The notes beneath the pieces were generated by a model that made no database searches, was not told the origin of the DNA, and saw only the letters and a list, made by a program, of their open reading frames with translations. A stretch of DNA of 64,000 nucleotides from positions 15,948 to 79,947 of the forward strand of contig CANQRF010000007.1 in the NCBI GenBank assembly GCA_947626195.1, read 5' to 3'. This document shows positions 18,499 through 24,118 of this stretch, in pieces (within the stretch, counting starts at the first letter, position 1; each line of letters starts with the position of its first letter). The position numbers and the translations under genes are program-made. The DNA comes from an uncultured Eggerthellaceae bacterium (GTDB lineage Bacteria; Actinomycetota; Coriobacteriia; Coriobacteriales; Eggerthellaceae).

Positions 18499-19914
18499 AT
18501 GCCTTTTGTGGGCAGAAACGCCGAACTTTCAACTCTTGAGCGGCTCTATACGAGCGATCGCTTCCAAATGCCTATCATCTACGGGCGTCGCCGAGTCGGG
18601 AAAACATCGCTCATATCTCATTTCATCCAAGGAAAACCTGCAATTTATTTTTCTGCGATTGAATCAACCGCCAAAGAAAACCTTATGGCGCTCAGCAGGG
18701 CTATCGTAAGCTTGGAATCTGACGGCATTCCTCGTGCAAATGACGCGCCCGCGCTTACTTTCAACACTTTTGGCGAAGCCTTCACCTATGTGTTCGATTT
18801 GGCGCGCACGCGCCGCATCGTTTTCGTCATTGACGAATATCCTTATCTCGCGCTCAGCGATAGATCGGTCTCCTCGGTGCTGCAGCATCATATAGACACC
18901 GAAAAAGATACGAGCAAGCTCTTCCTCATTCTCTGCGGCTCGTCCATGAGCTTCATGGAGCATCAGGTGCTTGGCTACAAGAGCCCGCTCTATGGAAGGA
19001 GAACCGCCCAGATTCGCGTTAAGCCATTTACGATCATGCAAGCAGCAGAGCTTTTGCATACAAGCAACGCCGAAGATATCGTATCGTGGTACGGCATGGT
19101 CGGCGGGGTTCCCCTCTATCTTGAGCAGTTCGATCCAGCGATGAGCCTGCAGGAAAACATGGCGTTCAACGTCCTGCGGCCTGCCTCGTTTCTTTACGGT
19201 GAGCCCGACTCATTTCTGCAGCAAGAGATACGGGAACCAGCGCGCTACAATGCTCTCATCCGGACGATTGCCGAAGGCGAGGGCAAGCTCACTGAGATTG
19301 CCGATTCGACAGGCATTGAGCGCTCTGCCGCCACGAGCTACCTAAAAGGTCTCATGGAGCTTGGCATCATCCGCCAAGAGAAGCCGGTAGTTGATGCGAA
19401 TCGAAAAAAGGTGCGCTACGTTTTATCTGACAACCTTTTCAGGTTCTGGTATCGCTTTGTGCCGCGGTATCTCACGCCCATCCAGGCAGGACGTTTCAAG
19501 GAAGTGGGTTCCCTCATCGCAAGCAAGCATCTCAGCTCCTTTCTGGGTCCCGCGTTCGAAGAGATATGCCGTCAATGGCTCGTTGCCTCTATGGGCACAA
19601 ATGACATTCCGCTCATTCTCGACATCGGACGATGGTGGGGAAACGACCCGCTGCGAAAGGAGCAGGCAGAGATGGACATCGTCGCTATCTGCGAAGATGG
19701 CAGCTTGATCTGCGGAGAATGCAAGTGGCGGGAAAAGCCCGTTGATGCATCCGTGCTAGCTACCCTGCAACATCGAGCCGACCTCATCAAGGAGGATCGT
19801 TTCGTGCGCTTCCTCCTGTTCTCGAAGAGCGGTTTCACCGATGAGTGCCGTGCGGCGGCTGAGAAAGCGAATTGCGTGCTCATAAGCCTTGCCGACATGG
19901 GCCTTGGCGCCTAG
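18499..19914 (+). CDS. AAA+ ATPase of the archaeal-ATPase/DUF234 family with C-terminal PD-(D/E)XK-like module
   Basis: FVGRNAELSTLERLY...IYGRRRVGKTSL (Walker A) and VFVIDEYPYL (Walker B). The C-terminus EMDIVAI...GECKWREK resembles the D..E.K nuclease-fold signature of DUF234. The upstream region is AT-rich. Confidence 0.75.
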   Translation: MPFVGRNAELSTLERLYTSDRFQMPIIYGRRRVGKTSLISHFIQGKPAIYFSAIESTAKENLMALSRAIVSLESDGIPRANDAPALTFNTFGEAFTYVFDLARTRRIVFVIDEYPYLALSDRSVSSVLQHHIDTEKDTSKLFLILCGSSMSFMEHQVLGYKSPLYGRRTAQIRVKPFTIMQAAELLHTSNAEDIVSWYGMVGGVPLYLEQFDPAMSLQENMAFNVLRPASFLYGEPDSFLQQEIREPARYNALIRTIAEGEGKLTEIADSTGIERSAATSYLKGLMELGIIRQEKPVVDANRKKVRYVLSDNLFRFWYRFVPRYLTPIQAGRFKEVGSLIASKHLSSFLGPAFEEICRQWLVASMGTNDIPLILDIGRWWGNDPLRKEQAEMDIVAICEDGSLICGECKWREKPVDASVLATLQHRADLIKEDRFVRFLLFSKSGFTDECRAAAEKANCVLISLADMGLGA

Positions 19915-20156
19915 TTATTGGGCAATGATCGCCCTGTTCTTTTTGGAGCTGTGGCGGGAGGTGCGAAGACATCGGACACGAAAACGACATTCGGATGCTA
20001 GACGGGAAGGGCGATAGTAGCAGCTATCGCCCTAACATAAAAACCAAGCGCCGCCCGTCCCTTTAATGTCTATCGGGCTTTGCCAGCTCCTATTCTACCA
20101 TCTTTCGCGCTCCGCGCCTATACCCGGCACCCGTTCTGTAAGAAACCGTCATTTAC
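19901..20156 (+). repeat. Direct repeat copy A (about 250 bp), partner at 23870-24118
   Basis: By-eye alignment to 23870-24118 gives roughly 80-90 percent identity with two small indels. It includes a shared small ORF, a shared hairpin and the shared block TATCGGGCTTTGCCAGC...ATTCTACCATCTT...CCGTTCTGTAAGAAACCGTCA. Confidence 0.85.
19925..20017 (+). CDS. Possible 30-aa peptide (N-terminally shortened copy of the 23849-23980 peptide)
   Basis: ATG at 19925 gives MIALFFLELWREVRRHRTRKRHSDARREGR with stop TAG at 20015-20017 inside the hairpin stem. Same frame and stop position as copy B. Expression is not shown. Confidence 0.25.
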   Translation: MIALFFLELWREVRRHRTRKRHSDARREGR

Positions 20157-20293
20157 CGCAAAGGCGGCCCACTACTGCATTCGCAGTTTAGCAAATGCGC
20201 ATACAGTATTCACGACTATTTAACCAGCGAGCACGATTTTGCTTTGCCTAATCTAAATTAGTCTAATCGTAATTAGACAAAATCATTTCATAT

Positions 20294-20382
20294 ATACCAG
20301 CAGCCAAAACTGGCTGATAAACACGATTGGTACCAGCAATCAACAAATATTGGTACCGCGGATAAACAACCTTGGTACCGCT
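20294..20382 (+). repeat. Left inverted-repeat arm with phased GGTACC-centred sites
   Basis: TTGGTACC at 20327-20334, 20350-20357 and 20372-20379 (22-23 bp apart), plus a degenerate ATACCAGCA at 20294. The arm aligns in reverse complement to 21916-21993. Confidence 0.75.
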
Positions 20383-20622
20383 TAGACTGAGCCTACAATC
20401 CCGTTCGTGCGCCCAATACGAGGCGACATGACGAAAAAGGACCCGATGCCTATGTCGAAGAGCAGAAAGATCATTATGATGCTTGCCAAAGGAGAGTCGA
20501 GCAAGACCGATACCGCAACGGCGCTGCACGTGATCAAGCGCGACGTGTCGGCGGCTTCGGCATCGTCCTTCCCCATATCCGGCGCTGGTAAAATAAGCGG
20601 GAACGTAAGAGACGGAGGATAG

Positions 20623-21773
20623 ATGCAGCAGTTCGAAAACGCCAGCGATAGCGCCCAGAATATTCCAGACGGTGTCTGGAATATTCAGAATACATCCAAT
20701 GAGCTGGCTTTTCCCAACGATATCCGATTCGACAACCACCCATCATTCGACGAGTTGGCCGATGCCATCGAGCAGGTCACAGAGCTCGCCCGCAACATGG
20801 CGGCGCGGCATGTGTATGGCGACCAGCTCTGGGCGTATTGGAACAACGGCAGGATGATCGTCGTATACGAGCAGGACGGGAGCGATCGGGCCGCGTATGG
20901 CGACCAGGCCCTCACCAAGCTCGCAAGGCGCCTGACCGCAAAGCTGGGACGGGGCTTCTCGCGTGCGAACCTCTACAACATGCGCCTGCTCTACCTCACC
21001 CACAGGAACTTCCAGACGCTGTCTGGAAAATTGTCATGGTCCCATTACTGCGAGACCATCACCTTAGAAGACGAGCTGAAACGGAAGTTCTACGAGCGCG
21101 AGGCCGCGAACTCGGGCTGGAGCGTCCGCGAGCTGCGCAGGCAGATGAACAGCCTGCTCTTCGAGCGCATACTGAACGCCAAGGACGATGCCAGGAGAGA
21201 ACACGTTCTGGCGCTGGCGAACGAAGGGGTGGCGTACAGCAAGCCCGCAGACGCCATTCGCAGCCCGCTCGTCCTCGAGTTCCTCGACATCCCCGACGAC
21301 GTCGCGCCTTTGGAGAGGGACCTCCAGCGGGCCCTGATCGGGCAGATCGAGAAGTTCATGCTCGAGCTCGGGCGGGGCTTCATGTTCGTGGGCAGCAACG
21401 TCCGGATCCCCGTCGGGGACGATACCGACTATGCGGACATGGTCTTCTACTGCAAGCCGCTTAGGGCATACGTGCTCATCGAGTTGAAGACGGACAAGCT
21501 GATGTCTTCGGCGGTGGGCCAGATCAACGAGTATCTGAACTACTACGCTGCCGAGGTCAACGACGAATACGACAATCCCCGATCGGCATCATCTTGTGCA
21601 CGGACAAGAACAACGTTCGGGCGGAATACGTGATCGGAGGGTTGAGCAATGCGATTTTCGCCTCCACATACACTCTGAGGCTCCCCGACAAGGGGCAGCT
21701 GGAAGACCAGGTGCGCAGGACCATCGAGGCCAACGAGCGCAGGGCGCTCATAAGCGGCGGAGGTGATGCGTAG
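20623..21773 (+). pseudogene. DUF1016/YhcG-type PD-(D/E)XK nuclease gene, disrupted by a frameshift at a C-run
   Basis: The ORF 20623-21633 encodes ...YADMVFYCKPLRAYVLIELKTDKL (D...ELK nuclease motif) ...EYDNP, then leaves frame. The shifted frame from 21582 continues with IGIILCTDKNNVRAEYVIGGLSNAIFASTYTLRLPDKGQLE... to TAG at 21771-21773. This is the expected family C-terminus. The break lies at CCCC 21577-21580. Confidence 0.8.
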
Positions 21774-21915
21774 CCTCGACCCGGATGCGGAGCACTTCGC
21801 GTTTTTGGACGAGACGGCGGTCAGCGGAACTATCAACACGGTGCTGGCGGCGTCGTGTCTGGTGCGGGTTCATGGAAGCGCGCGATTACTTCGCCGAGAA
21901 GAAGCTGGCTGGATA

Positions 21916-21993
21916 GCAGTACCACCTGCTATTTACCCGCGGTACCAAAAATCATTGATCGTTGGTACCAAGCCAGCTGATTGCCGGTACTGC
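21916..21993 (+). repeat. Right inverted-repeat arm with phased GGTACC-centred sites
   Basis: AGTACC at 21918, GGTACC at 21941 and 21964 (the latter inside the palindrome TTGGTACCAA) and GGTACT at 21986, spaced 23, 23 and 22 bp. The flanks CGCGGTACCAA are the reverse complement of the left-arm TTGGTACCGCG. Confidence 0.75.
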
Positions 21994-22065
21994 GAGTGTT
22001 TATTACTCACCAAAACTGACACCGCTGCACTATCGCTTGCTTTGCTTTCATAAATCTGAAAACAT

Positions 22066-22142
22066 CGATTCGCACAATCTCATAGTTATGCGCATAATCT
22101 CAACTTTGTGCGAATAAAGTCATGATTGTGCGCATAATGGTT
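22066..22142 (+). repeat. Tandem array of four 20-bp units (core TGCGCATAA / palindrome TTATGCGCATAA) upstream of the AlbA_2 gene
   Basis: Cores at 22069 (TTCGCACAA), 22089 (TGCGCATAA), 22109 (TGCGAATAA) and 22129 (TGCGCATAA), with exact 20-bp phasing. The segment is AT-rich. Confidence 0.85.
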
Positions 22143-22205
22143 AGATTATACTGTTCCCCATAAGCTTTACAGCACCCATTACGACCCTTCGAAGATTGGA
22201 TATAT

Positions 22206-23397
22206 ATGGGCTTCATAAGCGATTACAAAGATCAAATCGAAGGCCAAAGCCTTGAATTTAAAGAAGCTGGAACTCGATTGCCGGCTAATCTTTGGGAAAC
22301 GTATTCGGCCTTTTCCAATACCGAAGGCGGTCAGATCATACTTGATGTATCTGAGCATCATAATGACGATGGCCAGTGACGATGAGCTTGCGCGAATGGA
22401 GCACGATGCGCTCTCTAATGCCGATAACGCCATTGTTGAAGATTTTGATATGTCGGCCTTCAATAGCTCAACGATCGCGACTTACCGAAATCTTCTCACT
22501 CATGAGAAGCCCTCTCACCCTTGGCTAAGAGACGATGACGAGGACTTTCTCTATCATTTACGTGCTATTGACCGTGATCGTGATGGCGAATACCACCCAA
22601 CCAGAGCGGGGCTCTTGGCATTCGGCAACGAGTTTGAGATATTGCGAATTGTCACTGATTACCATCTCGATTATCGTGAGCAAACTGATCCGGATGTTCG
22701 GTGGAACAATCGGCTCGACTCCATGAGCGGAGACTGGAGCGGCAATCTCATTGACTTCTACCTCAATGTCACACAGCGCATCGATCGAGCATTGCCCCAA
22801 TCGTTTGGCCTCAACGATAACGGGATGCGGCACACGAGCCGTACCGAAATCAACGATGCAATCCACGAGGCAATCGCAAACGCTTTGATTCACGCCTATT
22901 ATGGCACAGGCGCAACCGTTACAGTTGTTTTAGAGCCTCATAGGCTCTTGGTTTCCAATTCGGGGACGTTTCTTATCAGCAGGGAAGTTGCTATTGCGGG
23001 AGGGATAACCGAGACCCGTAACCCCATTCTTGCACGCATATTTTCACTTATTGGAATTATTGATCGTGCAGGCAGTGGGTTAAGGAAGATCTATTCAACC
23101 TGGGAAGAGAAGTTTAAGGAGACGCCCCTTCTTAAGGAGGCATACGCGCCGGATAAAGTTGATATTGAGCTGCCGCTTTCAATCAACTTCAACGTGAAAC
23201 GGCCTTACACACACGTTCCTCATGAGGCAATTCTTGACCTCTGCCATAATCAGGGCGAGATAACGGTGAAAGACCTCACAGCCCAGCTTGGAATGAAGCA
23301 AAGCACCGCTCAATTTGCCTTGAGGAGCCTTGCCGCACAGGGGCAACTTGTCAGCGAACGGAGGGGCAGGGCTTTCGTTTATCGTCTTGCGAATTAA
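22206..23397 (+). pseudogene. AlbA_2 (Schlafen-like) + HATPase_c_4 + C-terminal wHTH protein gene, frameshifted near the 5' end
   Basis: ATG at 22206 gives MGFISDYKDQIEGQSLEFKEAGTRLPANLWETYSAFSNTEGGQIILDVSEHHNDDGQ, stopping at 22377-22379. This is the hallmark AlbA_2 N-terminus (SLEFKE...AFSNTEGG). The rest of the protein (TRAGLLAFGNEFE..., ALIHAYYG..., wHTH LGMKQSTAQFALRSLAAQGQLVSERRG) is in a different frame, in ORF 22252-23397. Confidence 0.75.
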
Positions 23398-23456: not shown

Positions 23457-23640
23457 AGAATGCGCACAATGACGAAATTGTGCGCATAATCTTAACTTTG
23501 TGCGAATAAAGTCATGATTGTGCGAATAAAGTTGTAATTATGCACATAAAGTTATCTTTAAACGCATAATCTGCCAATTGTGCGCATAATCTCATGATTA
23601 TGCGCGCAGGCTTAACTTTATGCGCAATGCGCGCATCCCC
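23457..23640 (+). repeat. Tandem array of nine 20-bp units (same family as 22066-22142) downstream of the AlbA_2 gene
   Basis: Cores start at 23461, 23481, 23501, 23521, 23541, 23561, 23581, 23601 and 23621 (TGCGCACAA, TGCGCATAA, TGCGAATAA, TGCGAATAA, TGCACATAA, AACGCATAA, TGCGCATAA, TGCGCGCAG, TGCGCAATG). The period is exactly 20 bp. A roughly 45-bp stretch (ATAATCTnAACTTTGTGCGAATAAAGTCATGATTGTGCG) is shared with the upstream array. Confidence 0.85.
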
Positions 23641-23848: not shown

Positions 23849-23980
23849 ATGGTGGAACGAGTTCTAGCTGCCTTGGCAGCATTGGCAACGATAGCCCTGT
23901 TCTTTTTGGAACTGTGGCGGGAGGTGCGGAAACATCGGACACGAAAACGACATTCGGATGGTAGACGGAAAGGGCGATAG
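23849..23980 (+). CDS. Possible 43-aa small membrane peptide with strongly basic tail
   Basis: RBS-like GAAAGGAG lies 7 nt upstream of the ATG at 23849. The peptide is MVERVLAALAALATIALFFLELWREVRKHRTRKRHSDGRRKGR, one hydrophobic helix plus an Arg/Lys-rich tail. The 28 C-terminal residues are conserved in repeat copy A. The listed 128-aa ORF start (23594) lies in the repeat array and is not credible. Confidence 0.35.
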   Translation: MVERVLAALAALATIALFFLELWREVRKHRTRKRHSDGRRKGR

Positions 23981-24118
23981 CGGCAACTATCGCCCCTAAT
24001 TAAAAAACCGGCGCCGCCCGTGGCTGTAAGTCTTATCGGGCTTTGCCAGCACATATTCTACCATCTTCCGCATCCTGTGCCCATACCCCCGCCCGTTCTG
24101 TAAGAAACCGTCACTTAC
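23870..24118 (+). repeat. Direct repeat copy B, partner of 19901-20156
   Basis: See copy A. This copy abuts the stop codon of ecfT (24115-24117). Hairpin GGGCGATAG-CGGCAA-CTATCGCCC here versus GGGCGATAG-TAGCAG-CTATCGCCC in copy A: identical stems, different loops. Confidence 0.85.

What the first reader, a model, noticed from the sequence alone, without database searches (positions are those of the whole stretch)
20294..21993. DUF1016 nuclease gene bracketed by inverted repeats, each with four GGTACC sites phased at 22-23 bp
Arms at 20294-20382 and 21916-21993 align in reverse complement:
- left arm: TTGGTACCAGCAATCAACAAATATTGGTACCGCGGATAAACAACCTTGGTACCGC
- reverse complement of the right arm: TTGGTACCAACGATCAATGATTTTTGGTACCGCGGGTAAATAGCAGGTGGTACTGC

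Cores sit at 20329/20352/20374 (plus a degenerate site at 20294) and at 21918/21941/21964/21986, that is every two helical turns. Several phased protein-binding sites in inverted terminal arms are the end architecture of Tn7/Mu-type transposons and of some invertible segments. Here they enclose only a single (now frameshifted) PD-(D/E)XK nuclease gene and a possible 71-aa HTH-like ORF (20407-20622).

Sequences just outside the arms also resemble each other in direct orientation (GATTTTGCTTTGCCTAATCTAAA near 20237 versus GCTTGCTTTGCTTTCATAAATCTGAAA near 22033). I know of no described mobile or invertible unit built around DUF1016.
Basis: seen in the sequence. Interest (0 to 1): 0.75.

Follow-up and report, generated by a model that had tools for sequence, protein, structure and literature searches.

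The report
Gutted IS21 insertion sequence carrying DUF1016
The inverted arms with phased GGTACC sites are the ordinary ends of an IS21-family insertion sequence whose two transposition genes were replaced by a now broken DUF1016 nuclease cassette, so this is a decayed derivative of a known transposon and not a new mobile unit built around the nuclease.

Summary
TTGGTACC occurs 6 times in 64 kb, only in these arms, against 0.56 expected. The arms align at score 45, against 13.4 ± 2.2 for shuffles.

The arms are terminal inverted repeats of an IS21-family insertion sequence. Relatives in Coriobacteriia carry the same ends (TGAsTAsTAA, then four GGTACC sites 22-23 bp apart) around istA and istB. 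Examples are L025 and the 2,616-bp L154.

The window element spans 20311-22009 (1,699 bp). It ends TG...CA and is flanked by a 7-bp target duplication, CCAAAAC. It keeps:
- the left end, with 3 sites because one repeat unit is lost;
- the last ~12 codons of istB;
- the right end, with 4 sites.

The missing ~2.2 kb is replaced by a 1.3-kb DUF1016 cassette with its own promoter. That gene is frameshifted, and its small partner ORF is truncated. Five close DUF1016 homologues sit in other genomic contexts and have no arms.

Verdict: a non-autonomous, MIC-like IS21 derivative, a new member of a known kind, of low to moderate interest. Whether it moved as a composite is unresolved. Conserved, co-varying palindromes inside DUF1016 genes are the more unusual thing seen in passing.

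The parts
20304..20310 (.). Left copy of the 7-bp target-site duplication, CCAAAAC
   Evidence: It directly abuts the TG terminus, and an identical heptamer abuts the CA terminus at 22010-22016. A 553-bp derivative of the same IS clade in L073 also has a 7-bp duplication, GCTTCTT.
20311..20381 (+). Left terminal inverted repeat of an IS21-family element: TGGCTGATAAAC terminus plus three direct 22-23-bp repeats with GGTACC cores at 20329, 20352 and 20374 (presumed IstA binding sites). Relatives have four, so one unit is lost.
   Evidence: It aligns base for base with the left ends of L038, L128, L025, L097 and L154. W20311-20554 matches L154 1-267 at 72%, E 1e-38. TRF period 22.
20372..20399 (+). 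Promoter-like site for istA: -35 TTGGTA overlapping the innermost repeat, and -10 TACAAT. Inferred.
   Evidence: Consensus scan. The -10 position is TAGAAT in L128, L038 and L097. Function not tested.
20456..20622 (+). The first ~35 codons are the IstA N-terminal HTH-1. The tail is read from cassette DNA, and the stop is followed directly by the DUF1016 ATG.
   Evidence: 63% identity over 40 aa to L154 IstA, E 6e-15. 57% to L128 and 50% to L025. DNA homology to IS relatives ends at about 20552-20559.
20567..21868 (+). DUF1016 cassette that replaced the IS interior. It contains its own extended -10 TGGTAAAAT (20586-20594), the DUF1016/YhcG gene 20623-21773 (frameshift at CCCC 21577-21580), and the first ~35 codons of the small partner ORF (21766-21868, truncated).
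   Evidence: 77-83% DNA identity to L001-L006 over W20608/20614-21868. Upstream homology including TGGTAGAAT is shared with L140 and L004. Pfam PF17761 + PF06250. PADLOC PDC-S02. Partner ORF alignment.
21879..21916 (+). 3' remnant of istB: the last ~12 codons, ...ARDYFAEKKLAG, then the TAG stop at 21914-21916
   Evidence: W21880-22009 matches L151 at 86% (E 1e-39), L154 at 81% and L128 at 72%. The remnant aligns with the IstB C-terminus ...REYFAKKR and with ...MREYFAKRRAEL* of L025.
21917..22009 (-). Right terminal inverted repeat: four 22-24-bp repeats (cores 21918 AGTACC, 21941, 21964, 21986 GGTACT) and the terminus ...GTTTATTACTCA
   Evidence: Alignment with the right ends of L038, L122, L025, L116, L128, L151 and L154.
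22010..22016 (.). Right copy of the 7-bp target-site duplication, CCAAAAC
   Evidence: The next two bases (TG) also match the element's first two bases, so the repeat can be read as 9 bp. All relatives start with TG, which favours 7 bp.

Best explanation
The region 20311-22009 is a non-autonomous derivative of an IS21-family insertion sequence, from a clade found here in Coriobacteriia genomes.

The normal element: autonomous members are about 2.6 kb. They encode the DDE transposase IstA and the AAA+ helper IstB. They end in TG...CA, and each end carries four direct 22-23-bp repeats with a GGTACC core. By analogy with IS5376, an IstA tetramer binds these repeats through its N-terminal HTH domains and synapses the two ends. 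IstB then delivers target DNA, and staggered strand transfer leaves a short target duplication.

What happened here: such an element, or its derivative, inserted into an AT-rich intergenic stretch and made the 7-bp duplication CCAAAAC. About 2.2 kb of its interior, from istA codon ~36 to ~12 codons before the istB stop, was replaced by a 1.3-kb DUF1016 cassette. The cassette comprises a promoter, a PD-(D/E)XK nuclease gene and the 5' half of its small partner gene. Both junctions are sharp, with no more than 14 nt unassigned and no extended homology. That points to illegitimate recombination.

The result has the structure of a mobile insertion cassette: IS ends, a passenger gene and no transposase. 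It could move only if IstA and IstB were supplied in trans. It is decaying: one left repeat unit is lost, two right cores are degenerate, DUF1016 is frameshifted and the partner ORF is truncated.

Shown: identity of the ends, the IstA and IstB remnants, the boundaries, the duplication, and the foreign origin of the cassette.
Inferred: IstA binding to the repeats, the order of events, and any residual mobility.
For: 1. A scan of 185,579 genomes for three phased TGGTACC sites gave more than 119 loci; I estimate about 2 by chance. In 29 of the 119, IstA and/or IstB homologues lie within the 8-kb block that holds the sites.
2. L025 has two inverted four-site arms around a 550-aa ORF (NCBIfam NF033546 IS21 family transposase, 197 bits against a cutoff of 160; Pfam rve and Mu-transpos_C_2) and a 251-aa ORF (PF01695 IstB_IS21, E 2e-40). 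Its IstA matches the solved IS5376 IstA structures 8Q4D and 8B4H at E ~1e-9.
3. L154 is a complete 2,616-bp relative with 4 + 4 sites. W20311-20554 matches L154 1-267 (72%) and W21880-22010 matches L154 2478-2616 (81%). The L151 right end is 86% identical.
4. The 71-aa ORF is the IstA N-terminus: 63% identity over 40 aa, E 6e-15.
5. An alignment of 15 ends shows a shared TGAsTAsTAA terminus and four GGTACC cores in register.
6. The 7-bp duplication sits exactly at termini that were defined independently by homology. The same duplication length is seen in the 553-bp L073 derivative. IS21-family duplications of 5, 7 and 8 bp are published.
7. Cassette homology W20567/20608-21868 to DUF1016 loci that have different neighbours and no arms.
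8. Literature: IS21 terminal repeats are made of multiple direct repeats, two complete repeats per end are required for integration, and the terminal dinucleotide is CA (PMC10122671).
Against: - No autonomous IS21 copy lies in the 64-kb window. The rest of the genome could not be searched, so a source of IstA and IstB in trans is unproven.
- The combination of IS21 ends and DUF1016 was found only at this one locus (the window plus the identical L129 and L130). There is therefore no evidence that it ever transposed as a composite. The replacement may have happened in place after a full IS inserted.
- No empty site was recovered (0 hits in JGI metagenomes).
- L025, the first full relative examined, shows no clear target duplication.
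- IstA binding to the GGTACC repeats is inferred from IS5376, not tested for this clade.
Confidence: 0.9

Rival explanations
1. One reading: a previously undescribed mobile or invertible unit built around the DUF1016 nuclease, whose phased GGTACC sites are bound by the nuclease or by the 71-aa HTH protein.
For: The arms are real and bracket only this gene. DUF1016 cassettes do appear in many unrelated contexts, so the gene is mobile in some way.
Against: Arms of the same sequence family flank istA and istB in relatives. The HTH ORF is an IstA fragment, and an istB 3' fragment precedes the right arm. None of the DUF1016 homologue loci examined (P0001, P0002, P0004, P0006, P0007, P0014, P0035, P0057) has phased GGTACC arms. 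There is no recombinase nearby.
Confidence: 0.02
2. The two arms come from two different IS21 copies: a left end of one and a right end of another, or a solo end plus a nested insertion. They would have been brought together by deletion around a resident DUF1016 gene, rather than being the two ends of one insertion.
For: Nested and truncated IS21 copies do exist in relatives. L038 has one copy inserted in the istA of another, and L097 has a left end with only ~100 IstA codons. The left arm has 3 repeats and the right arm 4.
Against: An identical 7-bp duplication lies exactly at both termini. The chance of that is about 6e-5 for termini fixed in advance. The two ends are also similar to each other in the diagnostic ATAAACAC sub-terminal motif, which most relatives lack.
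Confidence: 0.04
3. The arms are now used by the host as operator arrays that regulate the cassette. The retained IstA HTH-1 peptide would bind the repeats and control the promoter that overlaps the innermost left site. On this reading they are more than transposon debris.
For: A promoter-like -35 overlaps the innermost left repeat. The IstA' ORF is intact over HTH-1 and ends right at the DUF1016 start codon.
Against: The downstream genes are pseudogenes, and the cassette has its own promoter. In IS5376, DNA recognition uses HTH-1 and HTH-2 together, and only HTH-1 is retained here. There is no conservation of this arrangement in other genomes.
Confidence: 0.04

Closest known systems
IS21 family insertion sequences (IS21, IS5376, ISPve1 and others; IstA DDE transposase plus IstB AAA+ helper)
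   Same: TG...CA termini. Terminal inverted repeats built from several direct repeats. A short target duplication (7 bp here; 5, 7 and 8 bp published). The left end is followed by the istA 5' end, and the istB 3' end abuts the right end. There is direct DNA and protein homology to bona fide members (L025, L128, L154).
   Different: It lacks functional istA and istB, of which only about 35 and about 12 codons remain. The interior is a foreign DUF1016 cassette. This clade has four repeats per end with a palindromic GGTACC core, whereas the prototypes are described with two (L1/L2, R1/R2). The window's left end has three.
Mobile insertion cassettes (MICs, for example the IS231-derived MIC231 of Bacillus cereus) and MITEs
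   Same: IS ends flank non-transposase DNA, there is no transposase, a target duplication is present, and mobility depends on a transposase supplied in trans (definition cited in PMC3281130). A 553-bp MITE-like sibling of the same IS clade with a 7-bp duplication exists in L073.
   Different: It derives from the two-gene IS21 family. It still carries stumps of both transposition genes. Only one copy is known, so mobility as a cassette is unproven. The passenger is a pseudogene.
Tn7 and Mu transposon ends
   Same: Several transposase-binding repeats at each end. The transposase is a tetrameric DDE enzyme with tandem HTH domains, and target delivery uses a AAA+ partner (IstB, comparable with TnsC and MuB). 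The published IstA structure is compared directly with TnsB and MuA.
   Different: No TnsA/B/C or MuA/B homologues are present. The element size, the end sequences and the remnant genes are IS21-type.

Membership tests
IS21 family (autonomous member) | Two consecutive genes: istA (HTH + DDE/rve + beta-barrel) and istB (AAA+ helper) | tested here: not met
   Only IstA residues ~1-35 and the last ~12 IstB codons remain. tblastn finds no other IstA or IstB in the window. It is therefore a derivative and not an autonomous member.
IS21 family (ends / derivative) | Terminal inverted repeats ending 5'-TG...CA-3' | tested here: met
   TG at 20311-20312 and CA at 22008-22009, in register with 13 relatives' ends. 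The terminal CA is described in PMC10122671.
IS21 family (ends / derivative) | Each end is composed of multiple direct repeats (transposase binding sites) | tested here: met
   3 (left) and 4 (right) repeats of 22-24 bp. The literature describes L1/L2 and R1/R2. Binding by IstA was not tested.
IS21 family (ends / derivative) | Short direct target duplication flanking the element | tested here: met
   CCAAAAC x2. Published IS21-family values are 5 bp and 7 or 8 bp.
IS21 family (ends / derivative) | Sequence homology of the ends and adjacent coding remnants to elements that encode IstA (NF033546) and IstB (PF01695) | tested here: met
Mobile insertion cassette (MIC) | IS ends bracket passenger gene(s), with no transposase | tested here: met
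   DUF1016 cassette lies between the IS21 ends.
Mobile insertion cassette (MIC) | Evidence of transposition as a unit: several copies at different sites, or an insertion polymorphism | tested here: inconclusive
   Only one locus is known (the window = L129 = L130). No arms at eight other DUF1016 loci. The empty-site scan found nothing. The duplication shows that the ends inserted together, but not that the cargo was already inside.
Tn7-like / Mu-like transposons | TnsA/TnsB/TnsC or MuA/MuB genes, with ends carrying their binding sites | tested here: not met
   No such genes are in or near the element. The remnants are IstA and IstB.
Invertible (phase-variable) segment | Inverted repeats acted on by an adjacent serine or tyrosine invertase, with both orientations observed | tested here: not met
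   No recombinase ORF lies within several kb. Three independent assemblies all show the same orientation. Read-level data were not available.

The most novel reading that the evidence does not exclude
The chimera may be, or may recently have been, a working mobile insertion cassette in which IS21 ends move a candidate anti-phage nuclease (DUF1016 = PADLOC PDC-S02) using IstA and IstB supplied in trans. The retained IstA HTH-1 peptide might also act as a small end-binding regulator. That would give a concrete route for single-gene defence cassettes to hitch-hike on two-gene ATP-dependent insertion sequences.

Separately, the DUF1016 cassette carries two conserved intragenic palindromes that co-vary between lineages. 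These may be recognition sites for an unknown cassette-specific DNA-binding or mobility function.
Probability: 0.12. Interest if true: 0.45.

Novelty: new member of a known kind. Interest (0 to 1): 0.25.

Why it matters
- It removes a false lead. Phased GGTACC sites in inverted arms are a signature of one clade of IS21-family ends. The phased-GGTACC scan found them next to IstA/IstB genes in Coriobacteriia, Bacteroidota (Segatella, Bacteroides), Bacillota and Actinomycetota genomes. They are not a new DUF1016 transposon.
- For annotation, it shows how an IS21 remnant with a passenger gene can look like a novel element. The remnants are too short for domain searches: Pfam and NCBIfam found nothing in the 71-aa ORF.
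- It documents one case of a candidate defence gene (PDC-S02) captured between functional-looking IS ends in a small defence-type island. The island also holds a PDC-S27 ATPase and an AlbA_2/HATPase_c_4 pseudogene.
- This is of modest interest for how defence genes move.

Tried and rejected
1. Arms as a property of DUF1016 genes. I fetched the genomic contexts of eight homologues (P0001, P0002, P0004, P0006, P0007, P0014, P0035, P0057; 62-85% identity). None has phased GGTACC sites.
2. Segatella copri L084 has an IS21-type arm about 1.3 kb from a distant (34%) DUF1016 gene. Other genes lie between them and there is no second arm, so I treat it as coincidental neighbours in an island.
3. Empty-site or other-copy search with the right-flank 27-mer in JGI metagenomes gave 0 hits.
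4. Look-up of contigs encoding the neighbouring ATPase, to find strains without the insertion. Only the same filled locus came back, or contigs that break at the nearby 237-bp repeat.
5. Pfam and NCBIfam on the 71-aa ORF gave no hits. Its identity came only from pairwise comparison with IstA of relatives.
6. Protein-level match of the istB stump is weak: 8 aa, E 0.11. The claim rests on DNA homology.
7. It is not at the termini and is not used.
8. Rfam and tRNA scans found nothing in the region.

Full report
**Observation**

The sequence features are real. TTGGTACC occurs six times in the 64-kb window, and all six are in the two arms. The expected count is 0.56, and none of 100 shuffles reaches 6. 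Plain GGTACC is not enriched window-wide (8 found against 4.9 expected), so the motif is not a common genomic word. The repeat finder reports a 40-nt inverted repeat, 20327-20366 / 21932-21971, at 83% complementarity. A local alignment of the two arms scores 45, against 13.4 ± 2.2 for shuffles and 13.7 ± 2.1 for random window segments. TRF sees a 22-bp period.

The enclosed ORF is DUF1016_N + YhcG_C. It carries a 1-base deletion in a C-run at 21577-21580, and adding one C restores a 383-aa protein. Two other independent assemblies have the identical element, including the frameshift (L129 and L130). It is therefore probably a genuine mutation and not a sequencing error.

**What the arms are**

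I scanned one genome per species (185,579 genomes) for three TGGTACC sites spaced 15-17 nt apart. My estimate for chance is about 2 hits. In 29 of the 119 blocks, homologues of IstA and/or IstB lie within the same 8-kb block as the sites. These come from Coriobacteriia, Segatella/Prevotella/Bacteroides, Bacillota and Actinomycetota.

- **L025 (Atopobiaceae MAG).** Two inverted four-site arms enclose a 550-aa ORF and a 251-aa ORF. The first matches NCBIfam "IS21 family transposase" above its cutoff and has Pfam rve and Mu-transpos_C_2 domains. The second is IstB_IS21. The first also matches the solved IS5376 IstA structures 8Q4D and 8B4H.
- **L154 (metagenome contig).** A second scan, using the window-type terminus, recovered a complete 2,616-bp relative with 4 + 4 sites. 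It also recovered L151, whose right end is 86% identical to the window's.
- **Alignment of ends.** An alignment of 15 ends from this clade shows a shared TGAsTAsTAA terminus followed by four GGTACC cores in register.

**Anatomy of the window element**

- Homology to IS relatives covers 20311 to about 20555 and 21880-22009.
- The termini are TG (20311) and CA (22009), giving a length of 1,699 bp.
- The heptamer CCAAAAC directly abuts both termini, at 20304-20310 and 22010-22016. The termini were fixed by homology before the flanks were inspected, so the chance of a 7-nt match is about 6e-5.
- The next two bases also match, so the repeat could be read as 9 bp. All relatives begin with TG, which favours 7 bp.
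- A 553-bp MITE-like derivative of the same clade in L073 likewise has a 7-bp duplication, GCTTCTT.
- Published IS21-family duplications include 5 bp (IS5376) and 7-8 bp (Paracoccus elements).
- The left end has three repeats where relatives have four. The alignment shows that one internal unit is missing.
- The right end has four repeats, and its innermost and outermost cores are degenerate.

**The remnants**

MPMSKSRKIIMMLAKGESSKTDTATALHVIKRDVS is 63% identical over 40 aa to L154 IstA (E 6e-15). It is 57% identical to L128 IstA and 50% to L025 IstA. In IS5376, residues 1-39 form HTH-1. Domain libraries do not detect the fragment.

Just before the right end, the frame ...ARDYFAEKKLAG* corresponds to the IstB C-terminus. 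This rests on DNA homology, because the protein match is only 8 residues.

A promoter-like -35/-10 pair overlaps the innermost left repeat. The -10 position is TAGAAT in several relatives. That it is the istA promoter is an inference.

**The cargo**

From about 20567 to 21868 the DNA is 77-83% identical to DUF1016 loci from other metagenomes. Those loci have unrelated neighbours:
- a prophage/IS3 region,
- a toxin-antitoxin cluster,
- housekeeping genes,
- an Abi gene,
- an integrase island,
- a conjugative relaxase module.

None of them has phased GGTACC arms.

The cassette has sharp limits. It starts about 55 nt upstream of the ATG, including an extended -10 (TGGTAAAAT at 20586-20594 in the window, TGGTAGAAT in L140 and L004). 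It normally ends at the stop codon of an overlapping 62-71-aa partner ORF. In the window the partner ORF is cut after about 35 codons, at the right junction.

Both junctions are tight: 20553-20566 on the left and 21869-21878 on the right. Neither shows extended homology, which is consistent with illegitimate recombination.

PADLOC classifies the nuclease as PDC-S02, a candidate single-gene defence system, and the neighbouring ATPase as PDC-S27. The literature already records DUF1016 genes as hitch-hikers on mobile elements and in restriction-modification loci.

**Mechanism**

By established knowledge of the family (PMC10122671), IstA binds the multiple terminal repeats and forms a tetramer that synapses the two ends. 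Two complete repeats per end are needed for integration. The 3'-OH at the terminal CA attacks target DNA prepared by IstB, and this produces the target duplication.

The window element retains the cis-acting parts but neither protein, so at best it is mobilisable in trans. No IstA or IstB gene lies elsewhere in the window. The rest of the genome could not be examined.

I could not determine the order of events. The cargo may have been captured before the insertion at this site, which would make the element a true mobile insertion cassette. Or it may have replaced the interior in place afterwards. The chimera was found only at this locus.

**Comparison with known systems, and novelty**

The element meets every end-related criterion of the IS21 family. 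It fails the criterion of encoding IstA and IstB. It is best filed as an IS21-derived, MIC-like, non-autonomous element.

The claim of a new unit built around DUF1016 is not supported, and neither is an invertible segment.

This is a new member of a known kind, of low to moderate interest.

**Side observations**

1. **Palindromes inside DUF1016 genes.** A 19-bp palindrome, TTCCAGAC-N3-GTCTGGAA, lies at +40 and +387 of the DUF1016 coding sequence and nowhere else in the window. At +40 it extends to 13-nt arms. It is conserved at the same offsets in homologues. In two lineages (L140, L146) both copies read TGCCAGAC-N3-GTCTGGCA. That is a symmetric change in both arms and both sites, and it costs amino-acid replacements. 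This suggests selection at the DNA or RNA level.
2. **Arrays around the neighbouring pseudogene.** The neighbouring AlbA_2/HATPase_c_4 pseudogene is flanked by 20-bp-phased arrays of the palindromic 12-mer TTRTGCGCATAA. There are 13 hits against 0.5 expected, and all are in the arrays.
3. **Large direct repeat.** A 237-bp direct repeat at 85% identity, 19920-20155 / 23883-24118, brackets the whole stretch.

Noticed in passing
window 20663-20681 and 21010-21028; the same offsets in L001, L004, L007, L135, L140, L142, L146: A 19-bp palindrome, TTCCAGAC-N3-GTCTGGAA, lies at +40 and +387 inside the DUF1016 coding sequence and nowhere else in 64 kb. At +40 it extends to 13-nt arms (GAATATTCCAGAC GGT GTCTGGAATATTC). 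It is conserved in homologues. In L140 and L146 both copies read TGCCAGAC-N3-GTCTGGCA, a symmetric co-varying change that costs amino-acid replacements. It suggests a DNA operator, a recognition site or an RNA hairpin under selection.
   Followed up: partly
window 22068-22150 and 23460-23630 (possibly a degenerate unit near 20190-20205): Tandem 20-bp repeats, each holding the palindromic 12-mer TTRTGCGCATAA, flank the AlbA_2/HATPase_c_4-wHTH gene on both sides in direct orientation. There are 13 hits with at most 1 mismatch against 0.5 expected, all in the two arrays. They look like operator or centromere-like arrays for a dimeric HTH protein. The IS21 derivative inserted about 60 bp to the left of the upstream array.
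   Followed up: partly
window 19920-20155 versus 23883-24118: A 237-bp direct repeat at 85% identity. It contains the 3' end of a 43-aa hydrophobic/basic small ORF (complete copy at 23849-23980: MVERVLAALAALATIALFFLELWREVRKHRTRKRHSDGRRKGR) plus a GC hairpin. It brackets the IS21 derivative and the AlbA_2 gene. Several short-read assemblies break there. It may be an island boundary or a duplication.
   Followed up: partly
window 22206-23397: The AlbA_2 (Schlafen-like) + HATPase_c_4 + wHTH gene is split by a frameshift into 22206-22379 and 22252-23397. It has weak PADLOC similarity to pAgo-associated PNTD modules. Together with the PDC-S27 ATPase (18499-19914) and DUF1016 (PDC-S02), this looks like a small decaying defence island between an LCP gene and an ECF transporter.
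   Followed up: no
L001, L004, L135, L140 (also L007, L146): DUF1016 plus an overlapping 62-71-aa partner ORF (MRSL.PD.EYFAFLD.LRDSG.VNT.LAA..LVRE.P.LRAEEAKAICADWRATYHER, no Pfam hit) forms a discrete cassette. It has its own extended -10 promoter and sharp homology limits, and it occurs in at least five unrelated genomic contexts. How the cassette moves is unknown.
   Followed up: partly
L073 2157-2721: A 565-bp (approximately 553-bp interior) MITE-like derivative of the same IS21 clade. It has 4 + 4 GGTACC sites, TG...CA termini and a 7-bp target duplication (GCTTCTT), and no coding capacity. This is evidence that the clade spawns non-autonomous elements.
   Followed up: yes
L035 (Adlercreutzia rubneri) and L128 (Collinsella MAG): The ~125 nt of the IS21 left end shown for both are identical in genomes of two different genera. 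This suggests recent horizontal spread of this IS.
   Followed up: no
L038 650-1280: The right end of one IS21 copy appears to be inserted into the istA gene of another copy (left end followed by 82 IstA codons), a nested insertion.
   Followed up: no
L029, L067, L075, L111, L118 (Kiritimatiellae MAG) and L022, L027, L031, L061: Other hits of the phased-GGTACC pattern are longer tandem arrays (23-24-bp period, matching on both strands) with no IstA or IstB nearby. They are probably unrelated repeat families that share the palindromic core.
   Followed up: no
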